This document shows positions 859 to 60,946 of a DNA stretch of 64,000 nucleotides, piece by piece. The stretch's first letter is position 1, and every line of letters begins with the position of its first letter. Origin of the DNA: an uncultured virus (IMG/VR IMGVR_UViG_3300005098_000230) (taxonomy: Duplodnaviria; Heunggongvirae; Uroviricota; Caudoviricetes). The notes under the pieces are model-generated. The model saw only the letters and a list, made by a program, of their open reading frames with translations. It did not search any database and had not been told where the DNA came from. The DNA is taken from IMG/VR virus record IMGVR_UViG_3300005098_000230; one strand, given 5' to 3'. The position numbers were made by a program, and so were the translations under genes.

Positions 859-897
859 GTGAGCAATCTGTGGAAAGCGTGCTTTCCACACGGGAAC

Positions 898-1131
898 TTA
901 CCTATGCTCAGAGGGATCGGGGAGTTCGTGGCCTGGCTTGAGGGAATGGCCCACACCTACCTCTGTTGCCCGGCCTGAGACAATGGAGAAGGTAATCTGG
1001 CCAAAAGAGACAGCACTAAGCCACTCATCCGCCAGAGGAATGAGCAGTATCATGCTTTTGGACTGGGGACTGAGCCCAGACCAAATCTCTTGGGTTATTG
1101 GGCAGGATCGGGGGGTGTCTTGCTCTGCCAT
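898..1131 (-). CDS. Small hypothetical protein (DUF2292/YezD-like)
   Basis: FGQITFSIVSGRATEV segment; overlaps the 3' end of the upstream GT gene. Confidence 0.4.
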   Translation of the reverse strand: MAEQDTPRSCPITQEIWSGLSPQSKSMILLIPLADEWLSAVSFGQITFSIVSGRATEVGVGHSLKPGHELPDPSEHR

Positions 1132-4100
1132 GTGTACCACGTCTCTCCTACCAGATCGGCGAGGCGGGCAGTGGTTGGCCCCCAGCGCCATTTAGCGGCG
1201 TGAGCGCGGCCTAGCTCTGAGAGGCTCCGCCTCAGCTCCTCGTCGTCCCGCACCTGCTGTATCACACCAGCGATTGTGGCGGGGTTGACCAGGTGTAGGT
1301 CTACGCCAGTGCCCCGCTTGTCGCACTCTTTGGCCTCCATGAGGATCGCCGCCTCACCTGCCAGCGTGCTCATGGCCCGGCCCACATCGTTTGTAACCGC
1401 AACTGGCACGCCGCAGGCCATCGCTTCCAAAACGGGTAGCCCCGCACCCTCAACCTCATGGGGTAAGACTAGGAGATCGAGGAGATTGTACCGTTCCACC
1501 ATCGAGAGACTGACCAGTTGCATCATCTGGGTCACCAAGTCGAGGGCCACATCCTCTTGGAGCTGCGGGAGAGCCTCACGAATGTACTCCGTTGCTACTG
1601 TGGGAATCAACACCTCGCGGCTGCGATCATAGGCCACCCACTGGCGCGGGTTGGCTCTCATCATAGGCGCGAGGGGTGCGAGAAGGGTGATGGTCTCGGG
1701 CTGAAGGTCGGGGGCGAAGCGGACCAGGTCAGCAATGCCCAGACGCGCCACCTCGTCTATCAAGTCAAAGCCCTCCCACATGCCGCCATTCTCGGCCTGC
1801 ATGTGAAGGTAACACTGGAGGCCCTGGGCTTGTCCTGCTTTCCTCAACAGGGCCAGCGCATAGAGCAACCGCCACGGTGCTTTCACCCGCCTGTTGGTGG
1901 CCACCTGGCCGACTACAAAGCCGGTGAAGCCCGTTACCCCTCTCAGCCGCTCTCGCTCAAAGGGCGGTAGGGGGGCAAAGGGTGCATGGTCAGCGCCTGG
2001 GGGGAGGGCCAGCACATCGCGCCCCACCACCCGCTTGATCTCCCTGGCGGCAAAGGGCAGCCACGTCGCTGCGCCGTCTAGCTCAGCGATGATGTGGGCA
2101 TGACCTCGCCACAGAGGAAGGCCCTCCAGGGGAAAGTAACCCACCACAGGGCCAGTGAAGCCGGCAGCGCGGAGGGCTTGCAGGTAGCCCCCCACTCCAC
2201 CAATGTCACGGATGATCAACGCAATGTCGGGTCGCTCCACCAAGAGCAGCTCGCGCAAGCAGGCCCCGCCATCCGGGTCTTGGGTCGTTCCCTTCCACAC
2301 TGACCACGGCACGGTGGTCTGGAAGTAGGGGTTGTGGGCGGGCACGCCGCCAGAGCCTAACTGCACGACGGCGTGCCCACTTGCTTGGATGCCCTGACCG
2401 ACCATGCGAGCAGCAATGCCCCAACCTGTAGGCAAGTCGGGATGGTCAGAAACGAGAAGCACGCGCAGTGGTCGGTGGAGAGAACGGACGGGAAGAGGGC
2501 GCTCATCTCGGGCGAGGTAGACGACTTGGCGGATGATTTGGGTCAGGCGCTCCACATACTCAGCAGGATCGGGGCGGAAGGTGAGCAGGTCTTGTGCCTG
2601 GGATGAATGCTGCTCAGTACAAAGCTCTTGGAGCAGCCTGATAAGGTGCTCCTCCGTGCTCCAGCGGAAGTGGTCAGGTACAGTTTCTCGGTGCCCGCCC
2701 TTGTCACAAGCCAGAGGGATGCACCCGTGGGCCTGCGCCTCGACTACGGTGTAGCCGTAGTGCTCCCAGAAGTCGGGGCGCTGCTCATAGATGCCCCGTG
2801 GGGCAATGAGAATAGTAGCCCGCTGGTAGAACTCCGCGAGTTCTACGTCCGTCAAATCACGAGTCCAAGCAACATTGGGGAGGGTCTCAGCTACCGTCTC
2901 CACGAATTCAGCGTAAGCCTCGTGCCCAGGTGTGCGATCACCTACCAGCAGCAGTCGCCATCCTTGCTCCGCCAATCCAGATTGACGGAAAGCGTGGATG
3001 GCTACGATGGGGGCTTTGGCAGGGTCGAAACGACCAACGAAGAGGATCAGCTTCTCTCGTCCCATGTAGGGAGGAAGGGACACGGGCGGACTGCCTGCAC
3101 AAGGGATCGGTCGCTGTACATCGCTCTCTTGGGGGCGAGGTACGGGCGGATACAGCACCTCGGCCTCACGGTGCCAGCGGGCCTTAATGTGCTCAGCCGT
3201 GAACTTGGAGATGGCCAGTACTACCTCAAAGGGACTGACTGCCTCAGTTGCAATAGGGAAAAGGCAATAATTGATCAGATGATCGCAGGGATACGGGGGG
3301 AGGGGGCCTTCGTGGGAGGCGCAGATACCAACATCAAAGCGGTCGGGCCACTCCTCGCCAGCTCGGTCATCGTAGCGGAAGCCGAAGGCAGACTCACACT
3401 TGTCGGGGGTGAGGATTGCAACGTCGGGCTTGAGGAACAAGGGATACACGTCCAGGCCGTCCACTTGCTGGAGCAGGTGGACGGTATGCAGGAAGAGCCG
3501 CTCAGCCCCACCAATGACCTCGCCGTGGTTGGAGTAAACCAGGACTCGGATCGGGCGCTCGAAATCCAGCGCGTCCAGTTGTGGTTTGCGGGCCAGCCAT
3601 AGGAAGTAATCAGTATCATACCGCTCTTGCCATACTGGATCAGAGCGGATACCGCCGGCAGCAAAGAGGTGCTGGCCTGTGGCGCGGGGTTCAACCAGCA
3701 ATCCGTACCCGGCTAGGTGGAGCTTGTATGTGCCTTCCGTCTCCTCGCCCCGGGCCACGCCCACGGAGTAGACCTCCGGCCATCCACCCACCGCCCGCAT
3801 CGCCTCAGCGCGGTAGAGGCAGCAGGAATAGAGGTGTTGCACCCGAAAGCACGTCCCCTCTGAGGGATACGTGATTTGCGCTCCCCATGAGGGAATAGTG
3901 TGTCCCTCATTAGCCCACTCTGGCTCCCATCCCTCCACCACTGACCGTCCAGCGAAGGTGGGAAACCATAGTCCCCCTACCGCGCCGATGTCGGGGGAAA
4001 GGTAGAAGTGGTGCATCATGCCCTGCAAGGCATAGGCATTGAGCAACACATCATCGTCAAGGCGCAGGATAAACGGGGCCTCGGAGTTGTAGAGCACCCA

Positions 4101-5917: not shown

Positions 5918-6885
5918 CGCAAGACCTCTTTCCATTCTCTCAAGAAATGGGCCAAAGTACAGTTGGCCAACACCCAAGCGCGGGGCATGAACTCCCTACC
6001 ATGCAACACTCGATCTAGCGCCCGCTCAAAAGCGATCTCGTGGTAGTCATCCACCACGATGCCGCATTCAAGGGGCAAGTCAGCGGCGAGACCAGTGCGG
6101 TAGGCCACGATGGGCAGATTGCAGGCCATCGCCTCGATCAGCGCGTAGGAGTTGCCCTCGTAGTGTGAGGGGAAGAAAGCAGCGCATCCCTCTTGCCAGC
6201 GGGCAGCCTCATCGTTCTCGTTGGCAGTGTGTACCCCCAGATATTCCAAGTTCACCGCCGGCCCATCCCATCGCGCCAAGCGATCAGCAACCAGCGGAAT
6301 CATAGCCTTGCCCTTACGGGGATCGTGGGCAACGTGGAGGACTACCTTGTCCTCTGGCGGTTCGAGAGCGGGGGCAAAAACCTCAGTGCCTACACCATTG
6401 AGAATGATCTTCACCTTAGCAGACTCAATACCACACAAGCGAAGCTCGCAAGCTGACTGAGGAGCGACGGCCACCACCAGGTCGGCAGCACGGTACGCTT
6501 CATCCTGCATCTGAGCATGAGGCACAATGTCCTCCGTGCGCATCCAGGGATTGATCTCGTTCTGTATGGCCATGCCCCAGTAGGTGCCGTGACAGACCAC
6601 GATCAGCCGAGCCACCTTCCCTACCACGCCGAGGCCCCAGTAACCGTCAGCTATAACAGTGGTGTCCTGCCCAACCAGTCCCTCATCAAGGAGCCAGTGA
6701 CCGAGAGCCTCCGCTTTTTCCCAATCTGGAGCACTTTCCATGTGGGAATTTTCGGGGTAGTCAGACCACGAGTAAATCGCCAGATCAGGCACGGCGAGGG
6801 CGAGATGGGAAGCAAACTTCTCCACTCCGCCCGTGTACCCATCAGACCGCTTGCGCAGACTTAGATGCACATAATGCTTGCTCAC
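5914..6885 (-). CDS. GT4 family glycosyltransferase
   Basis: GGVEK, ILNGV, PSHYEGNSYALIEAMACNLPIV. Confidence 0.9.
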   Translation of the reverse strand: MSKHYVHLSLRKRSDGYTGGVEKFASHLALAVPDLAIYSWSDYPENSHMESAPDWEKAEALGHWLLDEGLVGQDTTVIADGYWGLGVVGKVARLIVVCHGTYWGMAIQNEINPWMRTEDIVPHAQMQDEAYRAADLVVAVAPQSACELRLCGIESAKVKIILNGVGTEVFAPALEPPEDKVVLHVAHDPRKGKAMIPLVADRLARWDGPAVNLEYLGVHTANENDEAARWQEGCAAFFPSHYEGNSYALIEAMACNLPIVAYRTGLAADLPLECGIVVDDYHEIAFERALDRVLHGREFMPRAWVLANCTLAHFLREWKEVLR

Positions 6886-9086: not shown

Positions 9087-11164
9087 GCCCTCTCTCCTGA
9101 TTTCGTGAACGCCACAGCTATCGGCACTACTCGCCCCGAATCAAAGATCAACCACTCCTCGTTTTTGAAATTCAGTTTGCTAGAAGCTGCGATATAAGCG
9201 AAGGGATCACGAGTACGCGGTGGAGTATAGCGAACGGTATCATATCCCTCAGAGAGAGCGTAGATCGCAAGTTTATCTCTGTTACCTATGCTCCAATTCC
9301 ATACTTCTAGCAGGCGCTGGACTCTCAGCGGGAGTTCAGCCCCCGCTTTGGGGATTATGGTTCCAGGCTTCTTACCACGCCGTGGCTCAATCCGCACTTG
9401 TCCAGCAACACCTAATTTTTGGACGAACATCTGCGCCCGGCGAACGTGTATCTTCAGAGTTTCCGTATCCCAAAACGCAAAAAGAGCTTTCTCTACTTCT
9501 TGCTTTGTCTCTTTTGTGTAATCCAAAACACGCCCTGGTCGCACTTTGACACGAACCATCGCGTTCACCCCTCGCCCATCACGCCCGTAGGCCAGAGATT
9601 TATTAGCCCCAGGAGCTATGTACACACCTGGGCAAAAAGCCCCGCTCTTAGACGGTTTTAACCGTTCACCCTGGAGCATTAAAAAGCCAACATTGGTATC
9701 AGTACCATGCCACCCCTCCCACACCTCTCCCTCGCCTGCTAGTTCGTGCTGGACCTCAACGCGCCTTACAGAAGAAACGCGAACAGGATAGCTATCTGCC
9801 TCTGCGTGGTTCTCAATGGCCTGTTGAATCAACTCTGGATCATCACCAGTCACAACGCCCTGATCATGTATAAAGGGAGGCTTCCACTCCCCCTGAAACT
9901 CCACATTCAAATCGCGTTTCAGAATGGTCAAGAGTTCTTGGGGGGAATCTGCCTCTATCCCATCGTCGGTGTACAGGGGGGTATGCTGAGACATGGGCAT
10001 ACCCCGATCATCCCACTTGTCCAAAACGCGAGTAGCTTGGAGTATGTACTTTTGTCTTTGAGCGTTATACCGAATCTCTACCTGAATCCGGGAAGCTCTG
10101 TAGTGAGGATCGTCATACTCACCTTCTATATCATAAAAACTGAATCCAATTCGCTTTGCTCGTCCATCCACGCTGAGGTAGTATCGGTCGGCACTACCCC
10201 ACCCCCCTGCTTCTCTGCCAGCTTTTGACCAATCAGGCTGGATAGTGTTAGCTCCCCACCGCAACCGCCCCACGGTTTTGTAGCTCGTCCACTGTCCACC
10301 GCCAGGCTGCCCCTTCGGGATGCGCGGTTGGTTCGGGTCGTAGAGCGCGACCACCACGCCCATCCGCACCTCTCTCAGCGTTTGCAAGGTGACATGCCGT
10401 AGCAGGTGCCCGCCCGACCATTGCCCTATCTGCAACTCCTCTGGCGTTGCAGGTCTCCCGAAAGTAAGGAAGCACTTGCAATTGCGCATACACTGCACGT
10501 CGTGACCTGGAAGCGTGGGCAAGGTCTTGGGAGTGTAGGGGTTGCCGGCAGCTATGCGGATACAATCGGGGCAGTGGTGCGCGGGGGGAAACAGGTTCCA
10601 GTAGATTTGCGTGAGCGGACCGACCTGGCTGACCTGCCCCTGAAACCACAGAGTTCGCAACGCCTCAGCATAGAGGCTGGTGCGGTACTCAAGGTGCTCA
10701 GCCAGCTCAGGGAGCGGCTTCTTCGCGTAAGCGCCGCCTGTCTTGGCCTTGATCTGCTCCACGAAGCGCCGGAGAAAGCCCTTCTCGCGGTCAATCTGCG
10801 CTCTAACCGCCGCGAGGTCTTCGGGAGTGAGGCCCAACTGAACGGACTGGATGTGCTCTTTGCCATACTCATACGCAAGAACAAACGCCTCACGGATAAG
10901 AGACTGCCAACCACGTTCAAAGTGGTAAGCGCTGATCTTCCCCTCGGCCAGCCGATGGGTGTAGTCCATCAGCGCCTCCAAGAACACACCCCGCAGGTTC
11001 TCATAGCGCATCTGGGGCGTGGATCCGCCGAAATACGGCAGGGCGAGGGCAAGATCGCCAAGTGCAACTTTGAATTTGAGCGCGGGTGATGTGGTAGTTT
11101 CCATGTGGGAAGTCCTATAATTCGTGGTAGGTTTCCCATTCCTCGCCATAGGCTTCCTCATCAA
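9083..11164 (-). CDS. MuF-like head morphogenesis protein with C-terminal PARP-like ADP-ribosyltransferase
   Basis: Follows portal; HCPDC..LPGHDVQCMRNCKC MuF Cys motif; C-term WHGT..GAFCPGVY..GYD..EEWLIFD (H-Y-E). Confidence 0.8.
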   Translation of the reverse strand: MMRKPMARNGKPTTNYRTSHMETTTSPALKFKVALGDLALALPYFGGSTPQMRYENLRGVFLEALMDYTHRLAEGKISAYHFERGWQSLIREAFVLAYEYGKEHIQSVQLGLTPEDLAAVRAQIDREKGFLRRFVEQIKAKTGGAYAKKPLPELAEHLEYRTSLYAEALRTLWFQGQVSQVGPLTQIYWNLFPPAHHCPDCIRIAAGNPYTPKTLPTLPGHDVQCMRNCKCFLTFGRPATPEELQIGQWSGGHLLRHVTLQTLREVRMGVVVALYDPNQPRIPKGQPGGGQWTSYKTVGRLRWGANTIQPDWSKAGREAGGWGSADRYYLSVDGRAKRIGFSFYDIEGEYDDPHYRASRIQVEIRYNAQRQKYILQATRVLDKWDDRGMPMSQHTPLYTDDGIEADSPQELLTILKRDLNVEFQGEWKPPFIHDQGVVTGDDPELIQQAIENHAEADSYPVRVSSVRRVEVQHELAGEGEVWEGWHGTDTNVGFLMLQGERLKPSKSGAFCPGVYIAPGANKSLAYGRDGRGVNAMVRVKVRPGRVLDYTKETKQEVEKALFAFWDTETLKIHVRRAQMFVQKLGVAGQVRIEPRRGKKPGTIIPKAGAELPLRVQRLLEVWNWSIGNRDKLAIYALSEGYDTVRYTPPRTRDPFAYIAASSKLNFKNEEWLIFDSGRVVPIAVAFTKSGERA

Positions 11165-15352: not shown

Positions 15353-16066
15353 CTAACTTTCCTCACCCTGGTCTTCTTCCAACTCTTGCTGGATGGCCAG
15401 TTGCTGGTAGCCGATTGCAAGAGCGGCGGAGAACTGTTTGACCACTTCCTCTGGCACAGAGGGCACACCCCCTTCTACCGTCAGTTCGCCAGAGACCTGC
15501 TGCTCCACTTGTGCCTCGACCTGTGCGGCGACTTTGAGCTGCTTGGGGATGGGTTGGGGTTCGAGGCCGGCCTCCTGCTTCATCTGGCGAAGCATCTTGA
15601 TAGCCTGCATTGCACGGTCTACCTCCGACCCTATCGCGGGAATGACGGTATCGGCTTCGTGCTCCTCTTGGACACCCCGCTGGACGCGGGCAAGTTGAGC
15701 AGCGGTAAGCTGCTCCATCGCAGCGAGGGTGTCAAGGGAAATGTGGTACTGGTGAAGGAACTTGGTGAGGTACTTGTCGCCCAAGATTTCATTGGGGGGG
15801 ATGTACTTGGTGCGGTAGTAGGAGAGCATCCGCGCGGTGATATGCGGATAGCCCATCTGAGTCAACCAGCGCCGCACATCTTCCAAGCGGTAACGGGCGG
15901 CCAGGCGCGAGCGCACTTCCATGTAGATATGCTCGGGAAGCTGGTCTATCGCCGTGTTTCCACGTGGGAACTCGGTGGGCAGTTCGGGTAGGGACGGCGG
16001 TGCTTCCTCGCCTCTCTGCCCCTCCTCGTCTTCCGGGAGACCATCAAGCACCTCTTCCTCACTCAT
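15353..16066 (-). CDS. Probable terminase small subunit (DUF3486-like)
   Basis: IDQLP..L..GY..IT...LSYY HTH-like motif; directly upstream of terL. Confidence 0.65.
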   Translation of the reverse strand: MSEEEVLDGLPEDEEGQRGEEAPPSLPELPTEFPRGNTAIDQLPEHIYMEVRSRLAARYRLEDVRRWLTQMGYPHITARMLSYYRTKYIPPNEILGDKYLTKFLHQYHISLDTLAAMEQLTAAQLARVQRGVQEEHEADTVIPAIGSEVDRAMQAIKMLRQMKQEAGLEPQPIPKQLKVAAQVEAQVEQQVSGELTVEGGVPSVPEEVVKQFSAALAIGYQQLAIQQELEEDQGEES

Positions 16067-23017: not shown

Positions 23018-24418
23018 ATGGACACCCTCAATGTATCCCAAATCTTCCCCAATCCCGATCAGCCCCGGCAGACGTTCGATCCCGACAGCCTGCGGGAGCT
23101 GGCCGAGGACATCGCCGCCCACGGCCTCATTGAGCCGTTGGTGGTTGTCAACCGCAAGCTGGACTCTGCCTACTACATCCGCCGCCTCCCAGCAGAGGTA
23201 CGGGAGTTGGTGGACGAACAGCACGCCACACACATGATCGTGGCCGGCGAGAGGCGGTGGAGGGCCTGTCACATAGCTGGCCTGACCGAGGTACCAGTGC
23301 GGGAGCTGAACCTCCACGACTCAGAGGTCTTCGAGATCGCCCTGGCAGAAAACATCACCAGGGCAGACATGAAGCCTACCGAGGAAGGGCGGGCGCTCAA
23401 TCGGTTGCGGGATAAGTACGGCTTGACCATCGCCGAAATCGCCCGCAGGTACGGCAAGAGCGAGGGCTGGGTCCGCGACCGGATCAAGCTCCTCAGCCTC
23501 GATCCCGAAATCGCCATCCTAGTGGACAGCGGGCAGGTGCCGATCAGCGTCGGCGTGGCCATCTCCAAGCTGACTCCCGACCGCCAGCATCGCGTCATCA
23601 AGCTGATGAACGAAGAGGGTCTGAATGCGATGGAAGCCTGCTTCCTCGCAGATCAGCTCTTCAACGAACAAGAACAGGGCACTCTCTTCGACCTGAGCGC
23701 GTACATGGCAGAGAGGGCAGCGGAAGCAGCGGCCAAGTGGCTGGAGAAAGGAAAGCAGACTACGGAGAAAATCCGTGACGCTCTAGTCACTGCCGTTCAG
23801 CAGTTGCCGCTGGAGGAACTGGAGGCACACATCGAGACCTGCCGCGAACTCTTGGAAGCGCGGACGCTGGTACTGGCCGGAGCCGATGAGCCTGGGCCGG
23901 GGCAGTTCGAGGTTTGTCCGCGCTGTCGGCACTATGCTGATGGCGTGTGTCTCCTGCTCCTGGAGCAGGACAACGACCCCGTTGGACTGGACGGCGAGGA
24001 GTGCTTTGAAGAGCAGCTCCCCACCCTTGAGGAATTGGAGCAAGAGATAGCCAACGACGCCAAGCTCATCCTGGCACATCCTGCTCCGGTCCACGAGATC
24101 ACGCCGAGAGTCAGCATCAAGGTCTGTCGCTTCGACACTGACCATAAGGCCCTGGCTGCTGGGGGGATCACTGGCGAGGCCGATCATCACTTAGTGGTAG
24201 CCGTGCTGATAGATGGACAAGTTGCCTTCACCCTCACTGGCGTGGAGAATGTGGACGCGGGCCGCGTGGACTTCGGCCTCGACTTCGATTATCTAGACAA
24301 CGCCACCGCCAACTTCGGGTTCGACATCAAGATGGCCGGCACAGTGTTCTCTGGCGCAGACTGGCCGCAGGTGCTGGCTCAAAGCGGGAAGGGGGAACGG
24401 CTCTATCGGGAGGACTAG
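23018..24418 (+). CDS. parB: ParB/Spo0J-family CTPase with long C-terminal extension
   Basis: PNPDQPRQTF, IVAGERRWRA, ALAENITRADM, HTH; Cys-containing C-terminal region. Confidence 0.9.
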   Translation: MDTLNVSQIFPNPDQPRQTFDPDSLRELAEDIAAHGLIEPLVVVNRKLDSAYYIRRLPAEVRELVDEQHATHMIVAGERRWRACHIAGLTEVPVRELNLHDSEVFEIALAENITRADMKPTEEGRALNRLRDKYGLTIAEIARRYGKSEGWVRDRIKLLSLDPEIAILVDSGQVPISVGVAISKLTPDRQHRVIKLMNEEGLNAMEACFLADQLFNEQEQGTLFDLSAYMAERAAEAAAKWLEKGKQTTEKIRDALVTAVQQLPLEELEAHIETCRELLEARTLVLAGADEPGPGQFEVCPRCRHYADGVCLLLLEQDNDPVGLDGEECFEEQLPTLEELEQEIANDAKLILAHPAPVHEITPRVSIKVCRFDTDHKALAAGGITGEADHHLVVAVLIDGQVAFTLTGVENVDAGRVDFGLDFDYLDNATANFGFDIKMAGTVFSGADWPQVLAQSGKGERLYRED

Positions 24419-25021: not shown

Positions 25022-25139
25022 CAAGATGGGGGGAGTTCCCGTGTGGGAACTCCCCCCGAAGGGTCAAAATGTTGCGTTTCCGTCGCCACCCTATGGTATA
25101 ATGGAAGCGCTCAAAGAACACGGAAAGGAGGTGACAAGC

Positions 25140-25499: not shown

Positions 25500-25576
25500 C
25501 CAACTCTGGGGCGACTTCCCGCGCGGGAAGTCGCCCCAAACACGCAAAGAACACGGACAGAAGGGAGAAAGAAAAA

Positions 25577-37912: not shown

Positions 37913-38845
37913 ATGGAGGCAACAGTAGTTAGGGTGCCCATCGCGGAACTGGTCTTCGACAACATCCGAGAAGACTACGGTGATCTCGAAGCGCTGGGCG
38001 ACTCTTACGGCCCAGTAGGACCGGAGGAATTGCCCACCGTGTACCCCAACGGCGACGGGCATTACCATGTTCTACACGGAAACCGGCGCATTCGGGCAGC
38101 TCTGGCACGGGGCGCGACCGAAATCGAGGTTGTGGTACGACCGCGACCTGAGAACCTGCGCTTGGCCCAACTTCTGGCCAACACTCACCATAAGGATTTA
38201 ACCCCCATTGAGGAAGCACGGGCACTGCGGGAGGTTGTAGATGGGGGAGTATCTCAGAAGGAACTTGCCCAGCGGTTGAGCAAAAGTCCATCGTACATCT
38301 CCCAGGCTTTGGCCCGCCTTAAATGGCATCCCGTCCTACAAGACCTCGTACATCGTGGTACCCTCTCCGCCTCGGCCGGCGAGGAGCTCGGGCGGCTCTC
38401 GCTTGACCAGCAAGCACTGTACGCCCCCAAGTGCGAAGGAAAGAGCGTACAGTACATTGCCCGCCTGGTCAATACCCTCTTGACAGCCGATGGGATAGCT
38501 CGGTTGCGGGAAGGGCGCGAGGCGGAAGGGGCGAGGGTGGTAGAGCAGGCGGTGGAGGAAATCGTCCAGGGGACTACACCAGCTTACGGGTATGATCCCG
38601 ACACCATCAGAAACATTGTGTCTCAGGGCAATGACCCCGCTGTACTCTACGATGCGCGACGGCTGGTAGCGCGGCTCTCTGAGTCCCTGCTGATCGCTCA
38701 GCGATTGGCACGGGCGGAGGTATACGGCGAGGCGCTACGCCTCGCTTGTGAAGCGGAAATTGACGAGGCGTGTTGCCTTGCCACCAGAATCATGCGGTTA
38801 CTGAATGGCGAGAAGGAGGAAGGAAATGGTACACCTGCACATTGA
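37913..38845 (+). CDS. Second ParB-like protein
   Basis: HVLHGNRRIRA, LANTHHKDLTPIEEARA, HTH SQKELAQRLSKSPSYIS; upstream TTGACA promoter at 37805. Confidence 0.85.
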   Translation: MEATVVRVPIAELVFDNIREDYGDLEALGDSYGPVGPEELPTVYPNGDGHYHVLHGNRRIRAALARGATEIEVVVRPRPENLRLAQLLANTHHKDLTPIEEARALREVVDGGVSQKELAQRLSKSPSYISQALARLKWHPVLQDLVHRGTLSASAGEELGRLSLDQQALYAPKCEGKSVQYIARLVNTLLTADGIARLREGREAEGARVVEQAVEEIVQGTTPAYGYDPDTIRNIVSQGNDPAVLYDARRLVARLSESLLIAQRLARAEVYGEALRLACEAEIDEACCLATRIMRLLNGEKEEGNGTPAH

Positions 38846-42672: not shown

Positions 42673-42710
42673 CTTTTTCCTCTCACGGAAATTCCCACGT
42701 GGAAACTCAG

Positions 42711-45700
42711 TTATTCCTCCCTCATGGCCGCCAAGCGAGCCATATACCGTTCAAAAGTACCTCGGTCGCCTGCGGGGATCAGACGAGCCTCCTGGCGGTC
42801 GGCGTCTATCTCCGCGCCCACGAGCATAAAAGTCGTGTGGCTGTCACGGAAGTCATTGGTCGAGAGGGTAGCCTCTCGTGCTCTGAACTCCCGTACCCGC
42901 GTTAGGCCACCCGCCTTGATCTCATCCACGGGCAGGCGTTTGAGATTGGCGTCGTAGATGTGTCCACGGGCCTTGAATGAGGAGGAAACGACAGGCTTCC
43001 CCTTCTCGGCGAGAGCGAGGGCGACGGCATAGAGGGCCTGCGTCTCATCAGTAGCCCCATCCACGCGAAGAGCGGTGCGACGATAGTACCCACCTAGCTC
43101 GTCTATCGCCTCCTGATTATAGGCATCAGCAGTGCGCTGTTCTTGTCCCTCTGTATCTGTATACACGGCGTACATCCGCTGGTGGCTTTGGGTCCAATCA
43201 CCTGTGACCTGCCCCTGAATAGGGGCGGAGCGGCGCACAACGTAACGGATGGTAGTCAGGTCTTGAGTCTCCAGGAAAGCACGGCGTAGGTCGTTCATCT
43301 CCACGCCCCAGGCTAGAGGGCGGCCCTGATTGTCCCCAAACTGGCAGAGCCACCTCATAATCTCTGCCGGCGTTTGGTCACTCTCGAAAACGGCGGGAGA
43401 GAGGGCACGGTTGGGTGGTTTCAGCTTCGAGGTATCTGAGGATAAACCGTGTACAGATGAAGCAAGCACGGCTACAAGGTCGGCGGCGACAACGGAGCCG
43501 TCTACCACCTCATCCTCTGCGCCCAAGACCTCCACATCGGTCAGCTCGCCGTAGACGGTATCCCCTGTTGCTGTGTTCTCACCATTAGCGGTGCAGTAGA
43601 AACGTATCTCTACATATGAAGGATCGCCCGTGGTCAGTTTGTCCAGGGTGCCCGATCCCGTTGCTGTCTCAGAGAGAAGGACCTCGCCAGTACTGGTGAG
43701 CACCTCTAGCTTACCCGGCCAGGAGTAGGGGAGCTCTAGCTTCCACGATGCACGGAACCGCTTGACTGCCTCACCAGTGGGCATAGTGTAGCGGACGTGG
43801 GTGTAATCGTTCGCGGTGTAATCCATGCCTCGGCGAGGCTTGAGGCGGATACGGTCTTGCAGATCGTAGTCGAAGGCGTCAGGGCGGAATGACCCACTAG
43901 GCTCCTCGCTTCCCTCCCAGCGGTTTAGACGTGTGTCGGAGTACACAGCGTTGTACACATCATCCTCAAAGAGAACGTTCCAGCCCAGAGCCGTAATCTC
44001 GATTTTGTCTCGGTCGGCCTGGTTCTCTGTGATTTTGCGGATTTGCCCATCAAAGAGGATGGTCGAGAGATACTTGCGCAGGATCACGCGGTAGCCGAAG
44101 TTGATGTCGGGGTAGTCATGGCCGAGCTTGCGATCAAGAGAGAACATGAGATAGCCGAAACCTGACCCCTCTGCTCCATAGTGATTTGACCAGCGCAGAT
44201 TCTGAACTTTGGTCATGCGATAAAGCCGCCCGTTGTGGTCGTAAATCTCCAATACGGGACGCACACGGCGACGCGGGCGACGCACCAATGCAGGCGGGAG
44301 TGTGGTCGTGCTTGTAGATGTACTGGTCGAAGTGGTCGAGGTGCTCGTCGAAGTAGACGTTGACGTTGAGGTGCTTGTCGAGGTCGAGGTAAGGGTTGTC
44401 GAAGTTGAGGTTGACGTGGACGTGCTCGTGGTCGAGGTTGACGTGGACGTGCTCGTGGTCGAGGTGCTGGTGCTCGTGGTGGTCGAAGTCGAGGTCGAGG
44501 TAGATGTGGATGTGGTGGTAGCCTCTGAGCAGGCGACGAAAATTCCCACGTGGAAACTGACGCCGGCAGCGTAGGTCGTGCCTGCCGGAGAGGGCAAACC
44601 GGTATCATAGTCAACCGTGTTATAGCGGGCTTGATCCCCCGCGTATGGGCTGGATGTATCCGCCGTAAGCGCGTTGGAGCCATCTCCCAGGGAAAACTGA
44701 ACGGCGATCCAGTAGTCCGTGTTGGCGGTGATGGCGTGAGATGGGACGGGCAGGGCAATGGTGCAATACCCCGCTGCAGAGATAGCCCCCTCCGCCTGCG
44801 CCAGCAAGTTGCCCGGCACCCCATTGTTGTCCGAGTAGAGGCCAACCCGCACTGCCTCCTCAATGCCATAGGTGGCAAAGTGCAAACGAAGATATATCGC
44901 CCACCCATTCGCAGTGCACCGGATCGGCTGGTACCATGTCACCTCAGCACTAGGACTGGCCGAATCTGTGAAGTTGACCAGGTCATCATTGTAGACCCAA
45001 TTATCACAAGCTAGAGTCGTCGTCGTTGACGTGGAGGTGCTGGTGGTAGTGATTGTCGTTGATGTGCTCGTCGATGTTGAAGTCGAGGTGGTACTCGTCG
45101 ACGTAGAAGTTGTCGACGTAGAGGTCGAAGTTGTAGAAGTCGACGTGCTCGTAGAAGTCGTTGTTGATGTAGAGGTAGAAGTAGAAGTCGTCGTCGAAGT
45201 AGACGTAGACGTGGAAGTTGTCGACGTACTCGTCGAGGTCGAAGTCGATGTTGATGTCGAGGTTGTCGTTGACGTGCTGGTAGAAGTCGAAGTTGATGTA
45301 GTAGATGTAGAGGTAGAAGTTGAGGTCGAGGTTGAGGTACTGGTAGAAGTTGAAGTTGTTGTAGAAGTAGACGTAGATGTGGAGGTCGTTGATGTGCTCG
45401 TCGACGTTGAAGTTGAGGTAGTGGTAGATGTCGAGGTCGAAGTAGTCGTAGACGTTGAAGTTGAGGTGGTGGTGAAATCCACGTACAAGACGGCCTTGTA
45501 CGAGCCATCACCATATTCGATTGCTCGTATCGAGCGTGTATAGCCGCTGCCACGTCCCTCCAGCGTGATGCCAATAGCATTCCCGCTGTTCCAGCCCTCC
45601 CTATCGATTATCTCCTGAACAATGTCTTTAATATCGACCGTATCATACCATTGGCCGGCGGCACCAAAAGCCGGTATGCTCCACGACTCAGTAGCCGTCG

Positions 45701-49269: not shown

Positions 49270-49991
49270 GGTAGCGGCTCCCATGTGTCAGGATCGCACT
49301 CGATCTCGTCGTAATGTTCTGGCAGTGGCCAGATGGGACGATGGCCGTGTTCCTCTGGTTGCATGTCGGCGGGATACCCCCAATTCTCCCCGAACATGTG
49401 CCAGCAACGGACGTCACGGGCATAGCCGACAGAGAGACCAACCTGGTGCAACCTATCGGCGATCCACCGCTCCTCGTTGTCTCGGCCTGGGATTTTCTCG
49501 TGCCGCCAGCCCCCCACCATGCGCACCGCATCGGTACGCATAATCCGCAATGAGGCCCCCACCCACGGCCTGCACACTACCCGATCAGCTCCCTCGAACA
49601 AGTCCCCTCTCTCACCCACCAAAACCTGCGGACGGCAAGCTATCGCCCCGTAACTCGGAAAATCCTTCATCAAGCCAATTAGCTGCGCCACCCAATCAGG
49701 TGTAAGGTTGGGGGCAAGAATATCGTTGTCGGTGTCTATGAAAAACGGCTCGGACTCCACCAGCGAGAGGGCAATGTTTTTGGCATAGTGGATACCACAG
49801 TTAGCGTCAAGAGCCACCAAAATTCCCACATGGGAACTCTGCGCTAACCACTCCCGCGTCCCATCGGTGGACCCATTATCCACCACGATCAGGCGATAGG
49901 GCACTCGGGTGCGCTCTGCGATATGCTGGATGGCTTTCTTGGTGTACTCCAGGCGCTGGAATGTGACCATCGTGATGTCTATACCGTTCAC
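49266..49991 (-). CDS. GT2 glycosyltransferase
   Basis: VVDNGSTDGT, DTDND. Confidence 0.9.
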   Translation of the reverse strand: MNGIDITMVTFQRLEYTKKAIQHIAERTRVPYRLIVVDNGSTDGTREWLAQSSHVGILVALDANCGIHYAKNIALSLVESEPFFIDTDNDILAPNLTPDWVAQLIGLMKDFPSYGAIACRPQVLVGERGDLFEGADRVVCRPWVGASLRIMRTDAVRMVGGWRHEKIPGRDNEERWIADRLHQVGLSVGYARDVRCWHMFGENWGYPADMQPEEHGHRPIWPLPEHYDEIECDPDTWEPLP

Positions 49992-59824: not shown

Positions 59825-60436
59825 TTAGTACTGCCAGATGTCGTAGGCGGCTACCTCGTTGCCATCCGAGTCTAGAATCTGCGGATCGGTGTAGACCTTG
59901 AGCGTCACACCAAACTCCATCGGATTGTCCTTGTCCCACACCCGTTGGGTTTCGTCGCCTGACCGCTTCGTGTAAGGAAAGATAGTGGCTGAAATCTTGT
60001 TGTTCTCATCGAAGTCGAGAACAGCCACGCGATAGACCGTCTCATCCTTGCGGTTGGTGTAGAACAAGCGATACTCGCTATTGACAGCATCATCGTTGAA
60101 GTCCACACCCTGCTTCACGAACTCCAAGACGGTCCGCGACCACTCTGCCGGCGTGATCTCAACCGTGCGGTTGTAGTCTGACTTGCGGGTGTTGATGACT
60201 CCGAACTGCTGGGTGTCAATCTCGGTCACATCGAAGCCCTCGCTCTCAGTGACGGGCTGAGTGGTGATCCCAATGTCGAACCACCCATTAGCCGCCACAG
60301 GATCGTAGGTGGTCAAGCTGATGATGTCTGAGAGCTGCAAGGGATAGGACGTGAGGTAGCTCGACCGCTTCTGCAACAGAACGCGGGCGATCTTGATTTT
60401 GACATTCGCTTTGGTGCCACGATACTGACCAGCCAT
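59825..60436 (-). CDS. Major tail tube protein
   Basis: About 200 aa, WFDIGIT, beta-rich; strong RBS; synteny. Confidence 0.7.
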   Translation of the reverse strand: MAGQYRGTKANVKIKIARVLLQKRSSYLTSYPLQLSDIISLTTYDPVAANGWFDIGITTQPVTESEGFDVTEIDTQQFGVINTRKSDYNRTVEITPAEWSRTVLEFVKQGVDFNDDAVNSEYRLFYTNRKDETVYRVAVLDFDENNKISATIFPYTKRSGDETQRVWDKDNPMEFGVTLKVYTDPQILDSDGNEVAAYDIWQY

Positions 60437-60454
60437 AGTAGGCACACCTCCTTG

Positions 60455-60946
60455 TTAGATACTTTGCTTACGATCCCGCTTGTTTGCGGGCCAGAAACGG
60501 AGCCAGCTATAGCGCCCTGCCCATTCCGGTGGACTGCCGCACAGGATACGAGCGTCGGGCTTGGGAATTGCCTGCGGTTTGCCTTTGACAAAGTAATAGA
60601 CCATATAGGGTCGGCCCTCAACAGTGCATGAGTACGGGTTCTCCTCGAGGTCGCGGAGCACAATCTTGATCGTCTCCTCTTCAGGAAGTGGCTCGGCCCT
60701 TTTCTCCACCCTTTCCACCAGCCTCTGGATTACGCCCTCGTAGTACTCCGCATCGGGGTTGAATTGCTCATACTCCAACTCAGTCATGCCGTGCAAGGCT
60801 ATATGTACTGGCGAGATGGGGTGAGGGAACTCCCGACCACAGACCTTGCATCGCACAGTTTCCACGTGGGAAGTTTCTTCGGGTGCAGTCTCCTCCGCAG
60901 GCTGATTTTCCACAGTTTCCACGTGGGAAGTTTCTGCCTTTTTCAT
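60455..60946 (-). CDS. Protein with a MucR/ROS-like Zn finger
   Basis: CKVCG..HIALHGMT..Y. Confidence 0.6.
   Translation of the reverse strand: MKKAETSHVETVENQPAEETAPEETSHVETVRCKVCGREFPHPISPVHIALHGMTELEYEQFNPDAEYYEGVIQRLVERVEKRAEPLPEEETIKIVLRDLEENPYSCTVEGRPYMVYYFVKGKPQAIPKPDARILCGSPPEWAGRYSWLRFWPANKRDRKQSI

What the first reader, a model, noticed from the sequence alone, without database searches (positions are those of the whole stretch)
883..60929. Fourteen dispersed parS-like palindromes, two ParBs and no ParA in the window
Seen: TTYCCRYRYGGRAA at 883, 6735, 11098, 15957, 25036, 25516, 26222, 27709, 33026, 42692, 44543, 49823, 60859 and 60916. A uniform-composition estimate gives about 0.015 chance copies in 64 kb. 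Many lie inside genes and are read as SHMET/SHVET/FPRGN/FHVE; some sit just upstream of promoters. Established: the TTCCACGTGGAA core resembles Pseudomonas-type parS, and the plasmid RK2 ParB homologue KorB uses about a dozen dispersed operators for long-range silencing. Inference: a genome-wide ParB clamp network for gene silencing, genome coating, or hijacking of host ParA/SMC.
Basis: partly seen in the sequence, partly recalled or inferred. Interest (0 to 1): 0.8.

Follow-up and report, generated by a model that had tools for sequence, protein, structure and literature searches.

The report
Phage-wide docking sites for orphan ParB
An uncultured tailed phage repeats one 14-letter parS-like DNA palindrome fourteen times across its genome, most likely as loading sites for its own partner-less ParB clamp protein, which would then act as a plasmid-style genome-wide gene switch and not as the DNA segregation machine.

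Summary
All 14 copies of TTYCCRYRYGGRAA lie at the stated coordinates, against 0.06 expected, with no halo of degenerate copies.

The window is a novel temperate-type tailed phage. It has two ParB-like genes and no ParA. The ParBs are therefore orphans.

- **ParB1 (23018-24418)** keeps all three CTP-binding boxes and a ParB-type helix-turn-helix. It lacks the ParA-activating peptide, and its novel C-terminal domain is predicted to dimerise.
- **Site placement:** seven of 14 sites are not fully inside a gene, against 8% non-coding DNA.
- **Promoters:** three sites sit in helical phase upstream of promoters with a TG-extended -10.
- **Cluster after parB1:** four sites lie just downstream of parB1, at the tips of strong GC hairpins.

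My best reading (0.45) is a KorB-like ParB1 clamp and operator network. No tool here could test which protein binds the motif, and the DNA of the five ParB1 relatives could not be reached. I class it as a new variant of a known kind.

The parts
883..896 (.). Site 1, TTTCCACACGGGAA. Intergenic. Its centre lies 54.5 bp upstream of the TG-extended -10 of the minus-strand promoter P858.
6735..6748 (.). Site 2, TTTCCATGTGGGAA. Inside the N-terminal part of a GT4 glycosyltransferase gene (5914-6885, minus strand); read as SHME.
11098..11111 (.). Site 3, TTTCCATGTGGGAA. At the junction of the portal stop codon (11115-11117) and the next gene. The ATG inside the motif may be that gene's start codon.
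15957..15970 (.). Site 4, TTTCCACGTGGGAA. Inside the acidic N-terminal tail of the gene just upstream of the large terminase gene (15353-16066, minus strand; no family hit, taken to be the small terminase subunit from its position alone); read as EFPRGN.
25036..25049 (.). Site 5, TTCCCGTGTGGGAA. Intergenic, at the tip of the 30-bp perfect palindrome 25028-25057. Its centre lies 54.5 bp upstream of the TG-extended -10 at 25097-25102.
25516..25529 (.). Site 6, TTCCCGCGCGGGAA. Intergenic, at the tip of the 30-bp perfect palindrome 25508-25537. It lies between a stop codon (25499) and the next start codon (25577).
26222..26235 (.). Site 7, TTTCCATGTGGAAA. Intergenic, at the tip of the 32-bp perfect palindrome 26213-26244, which ends 4 bp before the -35 of P26249. 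Its centre lies 43.5 bp upstream of the -10.
27709..27722 (.). Site 8, TTTCCATGTGGAAA. Intergenic. Its right half forms part of an 18-bp stem (27688-27731), upstream of the zinc-ribbon/HTH_17 gene that starts at 27763.
33026..33039 (.). Site 9, TTTCCATGTGGAAA. Inside the actin-like ALP gene; read as FHVE.
42692..42705 (.). Site 10, TTCCCACGTGGAAA. In the 38-nt gap between the tail-fibre-like gene's stop codon (42711) and the next start codon (42672), next to the ribosome-binding site.
44543..44556 (.). Site 11, TTCCCACGTGGAAA. Inside the 1617-aa tail-fibre-like gene, next to a Thr/Ser-repeat linker.
49823..49836 (.). Site 12, TTCCCACATGGGAA. Inside a GT2 glycosyltransferase gene.
60859..60929 (.). 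Sites 13 and 14 (60859-60872 and 60916-60929). They lie in a tandem duplication of 24 nt that encodes ETSHVETV twice, in the N-terminal tail of the gene starting at ATG 60946 (minus strand).
23018..24418 (+). parB1 (466 aa), the favoured binder. It has the ParB N-terminal domain with PNPDQPR, GERRWRA and ENITRAD boxes, and a clade-specific insertion of about 22 aa. It has a ParB HTH with the divergent recognition helix GKSEGWVRDRIKLL, four conserved Cys, and a C-terminal domain predicted to dimerise. It has no ParA-binding peptide.
37913..38845 (+). parB2 (310 aa). It has the ParB fold and HTH, but its CTP boxes are degenerate: GNRRIRA, no QPR and no ENxxR. Its promoter (-35 at 37805) carries a TTGCAGATGCAA dyad at the transcription start.
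830..858 (-). Promoter P858, TTGACA-17-TATTAT with TG. It reads toward a small ORF and a C5 DNA methylase gene (343 to beyond the window edge). A TTGCACTTGCAA dyad at 814-825 lies just downstream of the -10.
26249..26277 (+). Promoter P26249, TTGACT-17-TATAAT with TG, directly after the site-7 palindrome.
32472..34084 (+). Separate actin-like partition cassette. It comprises the ALP gene (32472-33596), four TTGTACTACA iterons (33597-33662) and a downstream ORF from about 33677 whose N-terminus looks like a ribbon-helix-helix. That last reading is by eye; there is no Pfam hit.

Best explanation
The 14 palindromes are specific loading sites (operators of parS type) for the phage's own orphan ParB1.

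**What ParB1 would do.** ParB1 would bind each site as a dimer through its ParB-type HTH. It would close its N-terminal gate on CTP and slide onto flanking DNA as a clamp held together by its C-terminal dimer domain.

**Why regulation and not segregation.** Segregation is provided for by a separate actin-like cassette, and ParB1 has no ParA-activating peptide. The array therefore most likely works as a KorB-like, phage-wide transcription control. It would act directly at the three promoters that carry a site in helical phase upstream of an extended -10. It would act at intercistronic junctions and from within long late genes by clamps that slide or block.

**Shown here**
- The sites are real, sharply defined and biased to intergenic DNA.
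- ParB1 has the clamp architecture in sequence.
- The model supports a C-terminal dimer.
- A separate partition cassette is present.

**Inferred**
- That ParB1 is the binder.
- That ParB1 uses CTP.
- That the effect is repression, as opposed to activation or compaction.
For: **The motif**
1. There are 14 copies against 0.06 expected, with no degenerate halo. This fits a protein site under selection.
2. It is a 14-bp dyad of the ParB/Noc site type. Its half-sites TTTCCAC and TTCCCAC share the inner positions of chromosomal parS. The outer G is a T in all 28 half-sites. In Caulobacter ParB that G is read by R173 (PMC7383237, passages), and ParB1 has E at the R173 position.
3. The window holds no canonical parS; the best match has 3 mismatches. 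The nearest chromosomal ParBs, from Clostridia at about 40% identity over the N-terminal half, do use the canonical site. Among their loci, 52 of 80 hold GTTTCACGTGAAAC, often clustered just downstream of parB, and only 1 of 80 holds the phage motif.

**ParB1**
4. ParB1 has PF02195 and PF17762 and the boxes QPR, GERRWRA and ENITRAD. It matches solved Spo0J, ParB and Noc structures at 4e-28 to 5e-18.
5. Four sites cluster 0.6-3.3 kb downstream of parB1. This is the layout seen at the chromosomal parB loci. The nearest sites to parB2 are 3.8 and 4.9 kb away.
6. The ParB1 C-terminal part (residues 215-466) as a homodimer scored a median ipSAE of 0.78 against a best control of 0.00. That mark was reached by 20 of 30 proteins solved as pairs of one chain and by 1 of 23 solved as single chains. 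The runs agree in at least 96% of contacts and the partner's pLDDT is at least 70. The model supports dimerisation but does not show it.

**Placement and context**
7. Seven of 14 sites are not fully inside a gene, against 8.2% non-coding DNA (binomial P = 5e-5).
8. Three sites have a TG-extended -10 at 54.5, 54.5 and 43.5 bp from the dyad centre, which is one helical turn apart.
9. Neither ParB has the ParA-binding motif, and a complete ALP-iteron cassette exists.
10. An unrelated temperate phage with an orphan 771-aa ParB, VarioGold, has 6 dispersed copies of GTGCANNNNNNTGCAC against 0.07 expected.
11. KorB is a CTP clamp that loads at OB sites and silences promoters up to 1.5 kb away (PMC11790492, abstract and passages).
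Against: - **No link to a binder.** No experiment or covariation ties any protein to the motif. The DNA of the five ParB1 relatives (44-49% identity, ENA/Logan contigs) could not be fetched.
- **Recognition residues have diverged.** Five of the eight parS-contacting positions are changed in ParB1: Q162I, R173E, N178D, G201S and R204V, by alignment to solved ParBs. ParB1 is not predicted to read a parS-like core, so the likeness of the motif to parS is not explained by conserved contacts.
- **No autoregulatory site.** No site lies at or upstream of parB1 itself, even with 3 mismatches allowed.
- **Most promoters lack the motif.** Only 3 of 14 sites are promoter-proximal. Only 2 of the 10 strongest promoter-like sites have the motif; 18092, 18880, 28826, 28834, 31267, 31276, 37805 and 58696 lack it.
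- **Four sites may act in RNA.** They sit in 14-18-bp GC stems (RNA -31 to -37 kcal/mol, z -4.8 to -9.4). The arms differ in sequence but keep pairing. This points to a hairpin function that ParB binding does not explain.
- **Other possible binders exist.** These are ParB2, a weak HTH_31 ORF (30736-31233) and a zinc-ribbon/HTH_17 protein (27763-28128).
- **The C-terminal fold is uncertain.** AlphaFold2 on the 6-row alignment left ParB1 residues 226-337 and 408-466 below pLDDT 50.
- **The pattern is not universal.** Two of the three other orphan-ParB phages examined showed no dyad above the null.
Confidence: 0.45

Rival explanations
1. ParB1 (or ParB1 with ParB2) binds the sites, but the array serves DNA organisation and not transcription. 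It could be a dispersed centromere or compaction array. Such an array might hold or fold the episome or the replicating phage DNA, recruit host SMC, or couple the DNA to the actin-like filament. The precedents are N15's dispersed SopB sites or Noc's scattered NBS sites.
For: - Seven of 14 sites are inside genes and 11 of 14 are far from any recognisable promoter.
- The sites are spread over every module of the genome.
- Canonical ParB-CTP bridges and condenses DNA, as PMC11790492 states of earlier work (passages).
- The N15 prophage-plasmid uses four separate IR sites for SopB (PMC7205306, passages). That these sites are scattered in late regions and aid late gene expression is my recollection and was not read here.
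- The phage also encodes an FtsK-like translocase and an ALP filament protein.
Against: - The ALP cassette has its own iteron centromere and adaptor-like gene directly beside it.
- ParB1 and ParB2 lack the ParA-binding motif, and no ParA was found in the window.
- ParB1 begins directly at the ParB N-terminal domain, so it has no N-terminal extension that could serve as a Noc-like membrane helix.
- The intergenic bias (P = 5e-5) and the helical phasing at three promoters are not expected for a purely architectural array.
Confidence: 0.2
2. The motif is a classical operator or 'stoperator' for a different phage DNA-binding protein, and ParB1 has another target or none. Candidates are ParB2 (static, with dead CTP boxes), the weak-HTH repressor-like ORF at 30736-31233, and the zinc-ribbon/HTH_17 protein at 27763-28128.
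For: - The sites are biased to intergenic DNA, and several lie between a stop codon and the next start codon (25516, 27709, 42692, 11098). This resembles the stoperators of cluster A mycobacteriophages, which I recall and did not read here.
- ParB1's recognition residues are too diverged to assign a site to it.
- ParB2 also has a ParB HTH.
- Site 27709 lies 41 nt upstream of the HTH_17 gene's start codon.
Against: - A second dyad, TTGCANNTGCAA, has 5 exact copies (8 with 1 mismatch allowed, against 2.0 expected). It sits at the transcription start of P858 and of the parB2 promoter, and in near-match form at the repO promoter. It is the better candidate for the repressor or ParB2 operator, which leaves the 14-bp motif for ParB1.
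- The orientation of the asymmetric sites does not follow the direction of transcription. Both orientations occur within the minus-strand late genes, unlike stoperators.
- The sites cluster next to parB1 and not next to parB2.
Confidence: 0.22
3. The elements act as nucleic-acid structures with no dedicated binder for the 14-bp core. They could be RNA hairpins (terminator, attenuator, processing or stability elements) or DNA cruciforms.
For: - Sites 25036, 25516, 26222 and 27709 lie in 14-18-bp GC stems. The RNA folding energies are -30.8 to -37 kcal/mol, with 0 of 200 shuffles folding as well.
- The arm sequences differ among the four while pairing is kept.
- All four stand directly after stop codons.
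Against: - The other sites tested do not fold better than shuffles. The z-scores are +0.41 for 42692 and +0.32 for 11098. For 883 the z-score is -2.1, and that comes from a neighbouring dyad.
- The four hairpins have no U tract, whereas the phage's clear bidirectional terminator at 28132-28163 has one.
- A structure alone does not explain why the same 14 letters sit at every tip and recur inside seven coding regions.
- There is no Rfam match in the window.
Confidence: 0.05

Closest known systems
KorB and its OB operators on IncP-1 plasmid RK2, with KorA as clamp lock (PMC11790492, PMC13584720)
   Same: - Both have a ParB-fold CTPase with an HTH.
- Both have about a dozen copies of one short palindrome dispersed over the replicon. 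The figure of 12 OB sites is recalled.
- In both, some sites lie next to promoters and others far away. KorB-CTP slides from OB to silence promoters up to 1.5 kb away.
- One promoter here (P858) carries both the 14-bp dyad upstream and a second dyad at its start. This is reminiscent of OB plus OA.
   Different: - ParB1 is not a KorB orthologue. It matches KorB 8qa8 at only 8.3e-05, against 4.4e-28 for Spo0J.
- The site sequence is of the parS type, not OB.
- There is no IncC/ParA partner.
- The replicon is a tailed phage and has a separate actin-like partition cassette.
- The C-terminal domain is novel, with four conserved Cys.
- No KorA homologue was identified.
- Binding and repression are untested.
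Chromosomal ParB/Spo0J-parS, and the paralogue Noc with its dispersed NBS sites (PMC7383237, PMC8429893)
   Same: - These are ParB1's closest sequence relatives, at about 40% identity over the N domain and HTH.
- The site is a palindrome of the same family. It has the central CACGTG of parS and TTTCC/GGAAA arms like NBS. The NBS sequence is recalled.
- Noc is likewise an orphan ParB with many scattered sites.
   Different: - The outer G of parS is T here, and the arms are shifted by one C.
- Five of the 8 contact residues differ.
- There is no ParA partner and no ParA-binding peptide.
- ParB1 has no N-terminal extension that could be Noc's membrane helix.
- The C-terminal domain is unrelated to PF23552.
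Sop system of the linear phage-plasmid N15, with four separate IR centromere sites (PMC7205306, passages; Ravin and Lane 1999 cited there)
   Same: Both are temperate phages whose ParB-family protein has several separate palindromic sites in place of one tandem centromere. A reported influence on phage gene expression is recalled and was not read.
   Different: - N15 has SopA (a ParA), and its sites are true centromeres.
- N15 has four sites, against 14 here.
- N15 has no actin-like cassette.
- SopB is a type Ia ParB from a different subfamily.
Orphan ParB-CTPase-fold proteins of phages and other mobile elements (survey PMC12704722), and ParB activators of phage thymine dioxygenases (PMC13229309)
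   Same: - ParB1 and ParB2 fit the survey's definition of orphan ParB. They are outside a parAB operon and lack the ParA-binding motif.
- This phage, like the dioxygenase phages, is rich in glycosyltransferases and has a C5 DNA methylase.
   Different: - The dioxygenase-associated ParBs lack an obvious DNA-binding domain (abstract). Both ParBs here have the HTH.
- No TET/JBP-type dioxygenase was found in the window.
- In the passages shown for the terms I searched, the survey assigns no DNA sites to phage orphan ParBs.
Stoperators of cluster A mycobacteriophages (recalled, not read here)
   Same: Both involve many copies of one 13-14-bp site spread through a temperate phage genome, enriched in short intergenic gaps within operons.
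   Different: - Stoperators are asymmetric, are oriented with transcription, and are bound by the immunity repressor.
- Here the site is a near-palindrome of the parS type.
- Here both orientations occur within one transcription direction.
- Here half of the sites are intragenic.

Membership tests
ParB/Spo0J CTPase clamp family (for ParB1) | ParB N-terminal domain with the three nucleotide-binding boxes (box I QPR, box II GERRxRA, box III ENxxR) | tested here: met
   PF02195 at 6.6e-21. QPR is at residue 15, GERRWRA at 77 and ENITRAD at 111. All three are invariant in the 6-sequence clade alignment.
ParB/Spo0J CTPase clamp family (for ParB1) | ParB-type helix-turn-helix DNA-binding domain | tested here: met
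   PF17762 at 4e-12. It aligns through the HTH with the solved structures 1vz0, 6sdk and 6t1f. The recognition helix is diverged (R173E, N178D).
ParB/Spo0J CTPase clamp family (for ParB1) | C-terminal dimerisation that closes the clamp | tested here: inconclusive
   There is no PF23552 hit. The homodimer model of residues 215-466 scored 0.78 against a best control of 0.00. That mark was reached by 20 of 30 solved homodimers and 1 of 23 solved single chains, with at least 96% contact agreement and pLDDT of at least 70. This is a prediction only, and AlphaFold2 modelled this region poorly.
ParB/Spo0J CTPase clamp family (for ParB1) | CTP binding and hydrolysis, and site-stimulated clamp closure and sliding | not testable with these tools
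   This needs purified protein.
ParB/Spo0J CTPase clamp family (for ParB1) | Specific binding to its palindromic site | not testable with these tools
   No protein-DNA prediction or assay was available. The relatives' DNA, needed for a covariation test, could not be reached.
Type I ParABS partition system | Cognate ParA ATPase and a ParA-activating N-terminal peptide on ParB | tested here: not met
   There is no ParA-type Pfam hit in 119 ORF translations. There is no deviant Walker A. Neither ParB has [LFI]G[KR]G[LFI]. About 9.3 kb of the contig lies outside the window.
KorB-type global regulator network | Many copies of one operator palindrome dispersed over the replicon, both at promoters and remote from them | tested here: met
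   There are 14 sites. Three are in phase upstream of extended -10 promoters and 11 are remote from promoters.
KorB-type global regulator network | Orthology to KorB | tested here: not met
   KorB 8qa8 matches ParB1 at 8.3e-05 and ParB2 at 0.002, far weaker than Spo0J.
KorB-type global regulator network | Co-repressor (KorA or TrbA) with its own operator at target promoters that locks the clamp | tested here: inconclusive
   A second dyad, TTGCANNTGCAA, lies at the start of P858, which also has a 14-bp site, and at the start of the parB2 promoter. Its binder is unknown, and no KorA homologue was seen.
Type II (actin-like) partition cassette (separate from the finding) | Actin-like ATPase, adjacent iteron centromere and a small adaptor gene | tested here: met
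   ALP_N at 6e-27, MreB-like_C at 4e-16 and phrog_691 'partition protein' at 8.4e-57. Four exact TTGTACTACA iterons start 1 nt after the ALP stop codon. The adaptor's ribbon-helix-helix is my reading of the sequence only; it has no Pfam hit.
Intrinsic terminators (for the four hairpin-embedded sites) | GC-rich stem-loop followed by a U tract | tested here: not met
   The stems are strong, but none is followed by a T run in the direction of the local genes. For 26222 the scan lists the stem on the opposite strand only. The true terminator at 28132-28163 has T runs on both sides.

The most novel reading that the evidence does not exclude
This may be a two-ParB circuit.

- ParB1 would be a CTP-gated sliding clamp that loads at 14 site variants tuned to each genome module.
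- ParB2 has lost its CTP boxes. It would sit statically on the TTGCANNTGCAA dyads at promoter start sites and act like KorA, catching and locking ParB1 clamps there.

One duplicated protein family would then supply both the sliding and the locking part of a phage-wide lysis-lysogeny or early-late switch. The GC hairpins around the four sites next to parB1 would couple clamp loading to transcript ends.
Probability: 0.1. Interest if true: 0.85.

Novelty: new variant of a known kind. Interest (0 to 1): 0.6.

Why it matters
Sliding-clamp regulation by a ParB-family CTPase is established for one plasmid system (KorB on RK2) and for chromosome segregation. Orphan ParBs are common in phages, but the papers I searched name no DNA targets for them (survey PMC12704722, passages).

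This phage gives an unusually clean case in which the partition role can be set aside. It has a separate actin-like cassette, no ParA and no ParA-binding peptide. The target sites are few, exact and partly promoter-linked. Simple binding, CTP and reporter assays could therefore show whether phages use ParB clamps as genome-wide gene switches.

An independent second example that I found (VarioGold), and several earlier unchecked notes of this scan, suggest that the layout recurs across unrelated phages.

Tried and rejected
**Searches for relatives**
- **Whole genome:** none is held for this window.
- **Close phage relatives:** megablast of 20 kb found no match.
- **TerL by tblastn against phages:** only hits of 27% identity or less.
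- **ParB1 relatives with DNA:** none in IMG/VR or JGI metagenomes.
- **GTDB genomes:** these gave only chromosomal ParBs matching roughly the first 160-290 residues of ParB1.
- **TerL in IMG/VR:** nothing.
- **TerL-profile scan of JGI metagenomes:** 16 loci totalling 148 kb, at 30-44% identity. Three of them (L204-L206) also share the gene upstream of TerL (37% identity), and two of those three (L204, L206) also share the serine recombinase (41-48% identity). None of the 16 has a ParB1 or ParB2 match at 1e-5, and none has a copy of the motif.
  - L205 and L206 have no dyad above the null. L213 (3 against 2) and L217 (3 against 3) are marginal.
  - This is too distant to count as covariation.
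- **Clostridia sample:** 1 of 400 genomes has a distant TerL match (7e-75), so the host remains unknown.

**Other checks**
- **Sequencing runs:** none was listed, and no RNA holder was listed.
- **AlphaFold2 of ParB1:** only residues 1-220 were confident, so I made no fold search of the C-terminal domain.
- **The 341-aa ORF after parB2:** no family, no solved relative and a poor Atlas model, so it is not shown to be a dioxygenase.
- **Half-site enrichment:** not clearly above chance.
- **Even spacing of sites:** the gaps range from 57 to 11,036 nt. By hand the coefficient of variation is about 0.76, and I make no claim from it.
- **Orientation of asymmetric sites as a replication or translocase polarity signal:** both 60859 and 60916 break a simple mirror about the origin at 31.8 kb, so I rejected it as stated. 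Only the clustering of variants by region is kept.
- **Rfam and tRNA scans:** empty.
- **Chance or coding artefact:** rejected.

Full report
**Observation.** One hundred dinucleotide-preserving shuffles gave a mean of 0.06 and never more than 1. The motif is crisp:
- 14 of the 17 YCCRYRYGGR decamers in the window carry the TT..AA flanks.
- Allowing 2 mismatches adds one match (15 against 2.1 expected).
- Allowing 3 mismatches gives 31 against 20.3 expected.
- Half-sites outside the full sites number 36, against a whole-window expectation of about 29.

The unit is therefore the whole 14-bp dyad, present in 14 clean copies. The window holds an N run at 18519-18643.

**What the window is.** It is a tailed phage with no close relative in the phage collection. 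Its source contig is 73,355 nt, so about 9.3 kb was not seen. Pfam and PHROGs give the following.
- On the minus strand:
  - large terminase (13638-15350)
  - portal (11115-13133)
  - major capsid (62989-63969)
  - tape measure (55109-58645)
  - a 1617-aa tail-fibre-like gene
  - eight glycosyltransferase genes
  - a radical SAM gene
  - a MazG-like gene
  - the start of a C5 DNA methylase at the left edge (343 to beyond base 2)
- On the plus strand, from about 22 to 40.5 kb:
  - ParB1
  - a large serine recombinase
  - a replication O-like gene with four GGTTGTCCCACAACC iterons inside it
  - an actin-like ALP gene
  - an FtsK-like ATPase
  - ParB2
  - a Rad52-like gene

No ParA-type hit appeared in 119 ORF translations. 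The only Walker A loop in an ORF identified as an NTPase is that of the FtsK-like gene.

The ALP gene (32472-33596) matches ALP_N at 6e-27 and phrog_691 'partition protein' at 8.4e-57. It is followed, from the first base after its stop codon, by four exact TTGTACTACA repeats in two pairs 44 bp apart. Next comes an ORF whose N-terminus reads like a ribbon-helix-helix. That reading is mine, from the sequence; there is no Pfam hit. This is the layout of a type II partition cassette with its own centromere. The absence of ParA is therefore not a gap in the phage's segregation equipment. It marks the two ParBs as orphans.

**The two ParBs.**

ParB1 (23018-24418, 466 aa):
- It has PNPDQPR, GERRWRA and ENITRAD boxes and a ParB HTH.
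- It matches solved Spo0J, ParB and Noc structures at 4e-28 to 5e-18, and KorB only at 8e-05.
- It has a clade-specific insertion of about 22 residues in the N domain, four invariant cysteines and an unclassified C-terminal part.
- Only five full-length relatives exist among 5.8 billion clusters, at 44-49% identity, all from ENA/Logan contigs. All other hits are chromosomal ParBs matching the N-terminal half.
- AlphaFold2 modelled residues 1-220 with confidence and the rest poorly.
- A homodimer job on residues 215-466 passed. The median score was 0.78 and the best control 0.00. That mark was reached by 20 of 30 proteins solved as pairs of one chain and by 1 of 23 solved as single chains. The runs agree in at least 96% of contacts, and the pLDDT is at least 70. 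The interface runs through strands 359-463. The model supports, but does not show, the C-terminal dimer that a clamp needs.

ParB2 (real start 37913, since the TTG at 37805 is the -35 of its promoter):
- It has the same fold and HTH, but GNRRIRA, no QPR and no ENxxR.
- It may therefore not use CTP.

Neither protein carries the ParA-binding motif [LFI]G[KR]G[LFI] as defined in PMC12704722.

**Relation of the motif to parS.** The half-sites are TTTCCAC/T and TTCCCAC/T, or G-containing variants at 883, 25036 and 25516.
- Aligned on the dyad centre, the inner six positions of TTTCCAC equal those of the TGTTCCAC half of the Pseudomonas-type parS. That string was found in P. aeruginosa parS papers (listing only).
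- The next position out is T in all 28 half-sites, where parS has G.
- In Caulobacter ParB that G is read by R173, which is invariant in parS-specific variants (PMC7383237, passages). ParB1 has E there. This fits.

The fit should not be over-read. By the same alignments Q162, N178, G201 and R204 are also changed (to I, D, S and V). ParB1's specificity therefore cannot be derived from sequence. ParB2 is equally diverged.

The window has no canonical parS; the best match has 3 mismatches. The loci of the nearest chromosomal ParBs do have it. Among them, 52 of 80 hold GTTTCACGTGAAAC, often in clusters just downstream of parB, and 1 of 80 holds the phage motif.

**Where the sites lie.**
- Six sites are fully intergenic: 883, 25036, 25516, 26222, 27709 and 42692.
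- Site 11098 bridges the portal stop codon and the next gene. That gene may start at the ATG inside the motif.
- Seven sites are intragenic:
  - 6735 (GT4)
  - 15957 (acidic N-terminal tail of the gene just upstream of the large terminase gene; no family hit)
  - 33026 (ALP)
  - 44543 (tail fibre, next to a Thr/Ser linker)
  - 49823 (GT2)
  - 60859 and 60916 (a 24-nt tandem duplication encoding ETSHVETV twice in an N-terminal tail)

With 8.2% of the window non-coding under my gene model, 7 of 14 sites not fully inside a gene gives a binomial P of 5e-5.

**Promoter link.** Three sites (883, 25036 and 26222) have a TG-extended -10 at 54.5, 54.5 and 43.5 bp from the dyad centre, in the direction of the local genes. 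No other site has such an element on the strand of the local genes within 25-90 bp. The 11-bp difference is one helical turn. Of the ten strongest promoter-like sites in the window, only P858 and P26249 have the motif.

**Hairpin subclass.** The four sites just downstream of parB1 lie at or next to the tips of 14-18-bp GC stems. As RNA these fold at -30.8 to -37 kcal/mol, with z-scores of -4.8 to -9.4 and 0 of 200 shuffles as good.
- The arms differ in sequence but stay complementary.
- Each hairpin follows a stop codon.
- None has a U tract in the direction of the local genes, unlike the clear terminator at 28132-28163.
- Sites 42692 and 11098 do not fold better than shuffles.

I cannot explain why a parS-like core should sit at the tip of a transcript-end hairpin. 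I keep this as an open point and as part of a rival reading.

**A second dyad.** TTGCANNTGCAA has five exact copies: 814, 18804, 19575, 19681 and 37838. With one mismatch allowed there are 8, against 2.0 expected.
- It lies just after the -10 of P858 and of the parB2 promoter, where it extends to TGTATTGCAGATGCAATACA.
- A one-mismatch copy follows the repO promoter.

This looks like the operator of a repressor, or of ParB2 itself. It leaves the 14-bp motif for ParB1, whose gene the motif also clusters beside. P858 carries both dyads, an arrangement that recalls OB plus OA on RK2.

**Variants cluster by region.** I classed each site by the third base of its two TTYCC half-sites. Going round the genome, the 14 sites read TC x4, CC x2, TT x3, CT x2, CC and TC x2. 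Nine of 14 neighbouring pairs are alike, a level reached by 123 of 200,000 shuffles. With the tandem pair collapsed the figure is 221 of 200,000. The classes follow the modules: head and packaging, early genes, then tail fibre and glycosyltransferases. Within the minus-strand late genes both orientations occur, so orientation does not follow transcription. The cause is unexplained.

**Comparative evidence.** It is thin.
- The DNA of the five ParB1 relatives was out of reach.
- Sixteen JGI loci with TerL relatives (30-44% identity, 148 kb in all) hold no ParB1 or ParB2 match and no copy of the motif. The two best of them show no enriched dyad.
- Among three complete phages whose ParB resembles ParB1's N-terminal half, Variovorax phage VarioGold has six dispersed copies of GTGCANNNNNNTGCAC against 0.07 expected. 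It is an integrating phage with a 771-aa orphan ParB, and one copy lies inside the parB gene. Its paper mentions no palindrome or parS (PMC9658991, term search).
- The other two phages show nothing above the null.
- Earlier notes of this scan list at least eight other phages with an orphan ParB and a dispersed palindrome. These are unchecked AI notes and I use them as leads only.

**Reading.** The sites are almost certainly protein-binding sites under selection. ParB1 is the best candidate by family type, by the clustering of sites beside its gene, by the plausible assignment of the other dyad to another factor, and by its intact clamp motifs.

Partition has its own cassette and ParB1 cannot address a ParA. 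I therefore favour a KorB-like regulatory network (0.45) over an architectural or centromere array (0.20), another binder (0.22) or a pure structure element (0.05). KorB's mechanism is taken from PMC11790492 (abstract and passages). The four N15 IR sites are taken from PMC7205306 (passages). The number of OB sites, the N15 late-gene effect, the NBS sequence and the stoperators are recalled, not read.

**Novelty.** I found no paper describing a ParB site array for a tailed phage without ParA. The searches were made, and passages of PMC12704722 and PMC13229309. Supplements of these papers were not opened and could hold such data. The kind of system (ParB-family clamp plus dispersed operators) is known from RK2, so I class this as a new variant of a known kind.

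Noticed in passing
window 32472-34084: A complete actin-like (type II) partition cassette. It comprises the ALP gene, four exact TTGTACTACA iterons in two pairs 44 bp apart that begin right after the stop codon, and an ORF with a ribbon-helix-helix-like N-terminus. It suggests that the phage can be kept, or moved, as an episome even though it also has a large serine recombinase.
   Followed up: partly
window 814-825, 18804-18815, 19575-19586, 19681-19692, 37838-37849 (near copies at 31309 and 58702): A second dyad, TTGCANNTGCAA, has 5 exact copies. It lies at the transcription start of P858 and of the parB2 promoter, and in near-match form at the repO promoter. It is a likely operator of a repressor or of ParB2.
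   Followed up: partly
window 31789-31875: Four 22-nt iterons (core GGTTGTCCCACAACC) lie inside the replication O-like gene, so the origin of replication is probably here. Divergent perfect-consensus promoters stand at 31267 (minus strand) and 31276 (plus strand) just upstream.
   Followed up: partly
window 2-343 (-), 1095-8937, 47583-52183, 13145-13942, 16308-17963: The window holds a C5 cytosine DNA methylase (N-terminal part, cut by the window edge) downstream of P858. It also holds eight glycosyltransferase genes, a methyltransferase, a phosphodiesterase, a MazG-like gene and a radical SAM gene. These may serve DNA hypermodification or virion glycosylation. No TET/JBP dioxygenase was found.
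   Followed up: partly
window 18113-19720: A mostly non-coding, A-rich stretch. It contains GACGG/GCCAGACGG tandem repeats (18275-18460), the withheld N run (18519-18643) and two direct repeats about 106 bp apart, each ending in the TTGCACTTGCAA dyad. Strong promoters stand at 18092 (minus strand) and 18880 (plus strand).
   Followed up: no
all 14 sites: Site variants (T or C at the third base of each half-site) cluster by genome region and module. Nine of 14 neighbouring pairs are alike, a level reached by 123 of 200,000 shuffles. Six of nine asymmetric sites share a kTTT flank after GGGAA. The cause is unknown.
   Followed up: partly
L201 (Variovorax phage VarioGold, OP296522.1) 5756, 15561, 21002, 29452, 31899, 37753: Six dispersed copies of the 16-bp palindrome GTGCANNNNNNTGCAC occur, against 0.07 expected, in an integrating phage with a 771-aa orphan ParB. 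One copy lies inside the parB gene. The phage's paper does not mention it.
   Followed up: partly
L213 2858, 7898, 18698, 21175: In a JGI contig with a distant TerL relative (33% identity), the dyads GTGCA-N6-TGCAC and TGCAA-N4-TTGCA each occur 3 times, against a null maximum of 2. Its genes were not examined.
   Followed up: no
window 35125-36627: An FtsK/SpoIIIE-type ATPase (PF01580 at 2.4e-23) lies in the early region of a phage that already has a terminase. Its role is unknown.
   Followed up: no
window 44377-46870: The 1617-aa tail-fibre-like gene holds many TCGACCTCGAC-type repeats that encode Thr/Ser linkers. It also has an N-terminal laminin-G/concanavalin-like domain.
   Followed up: no
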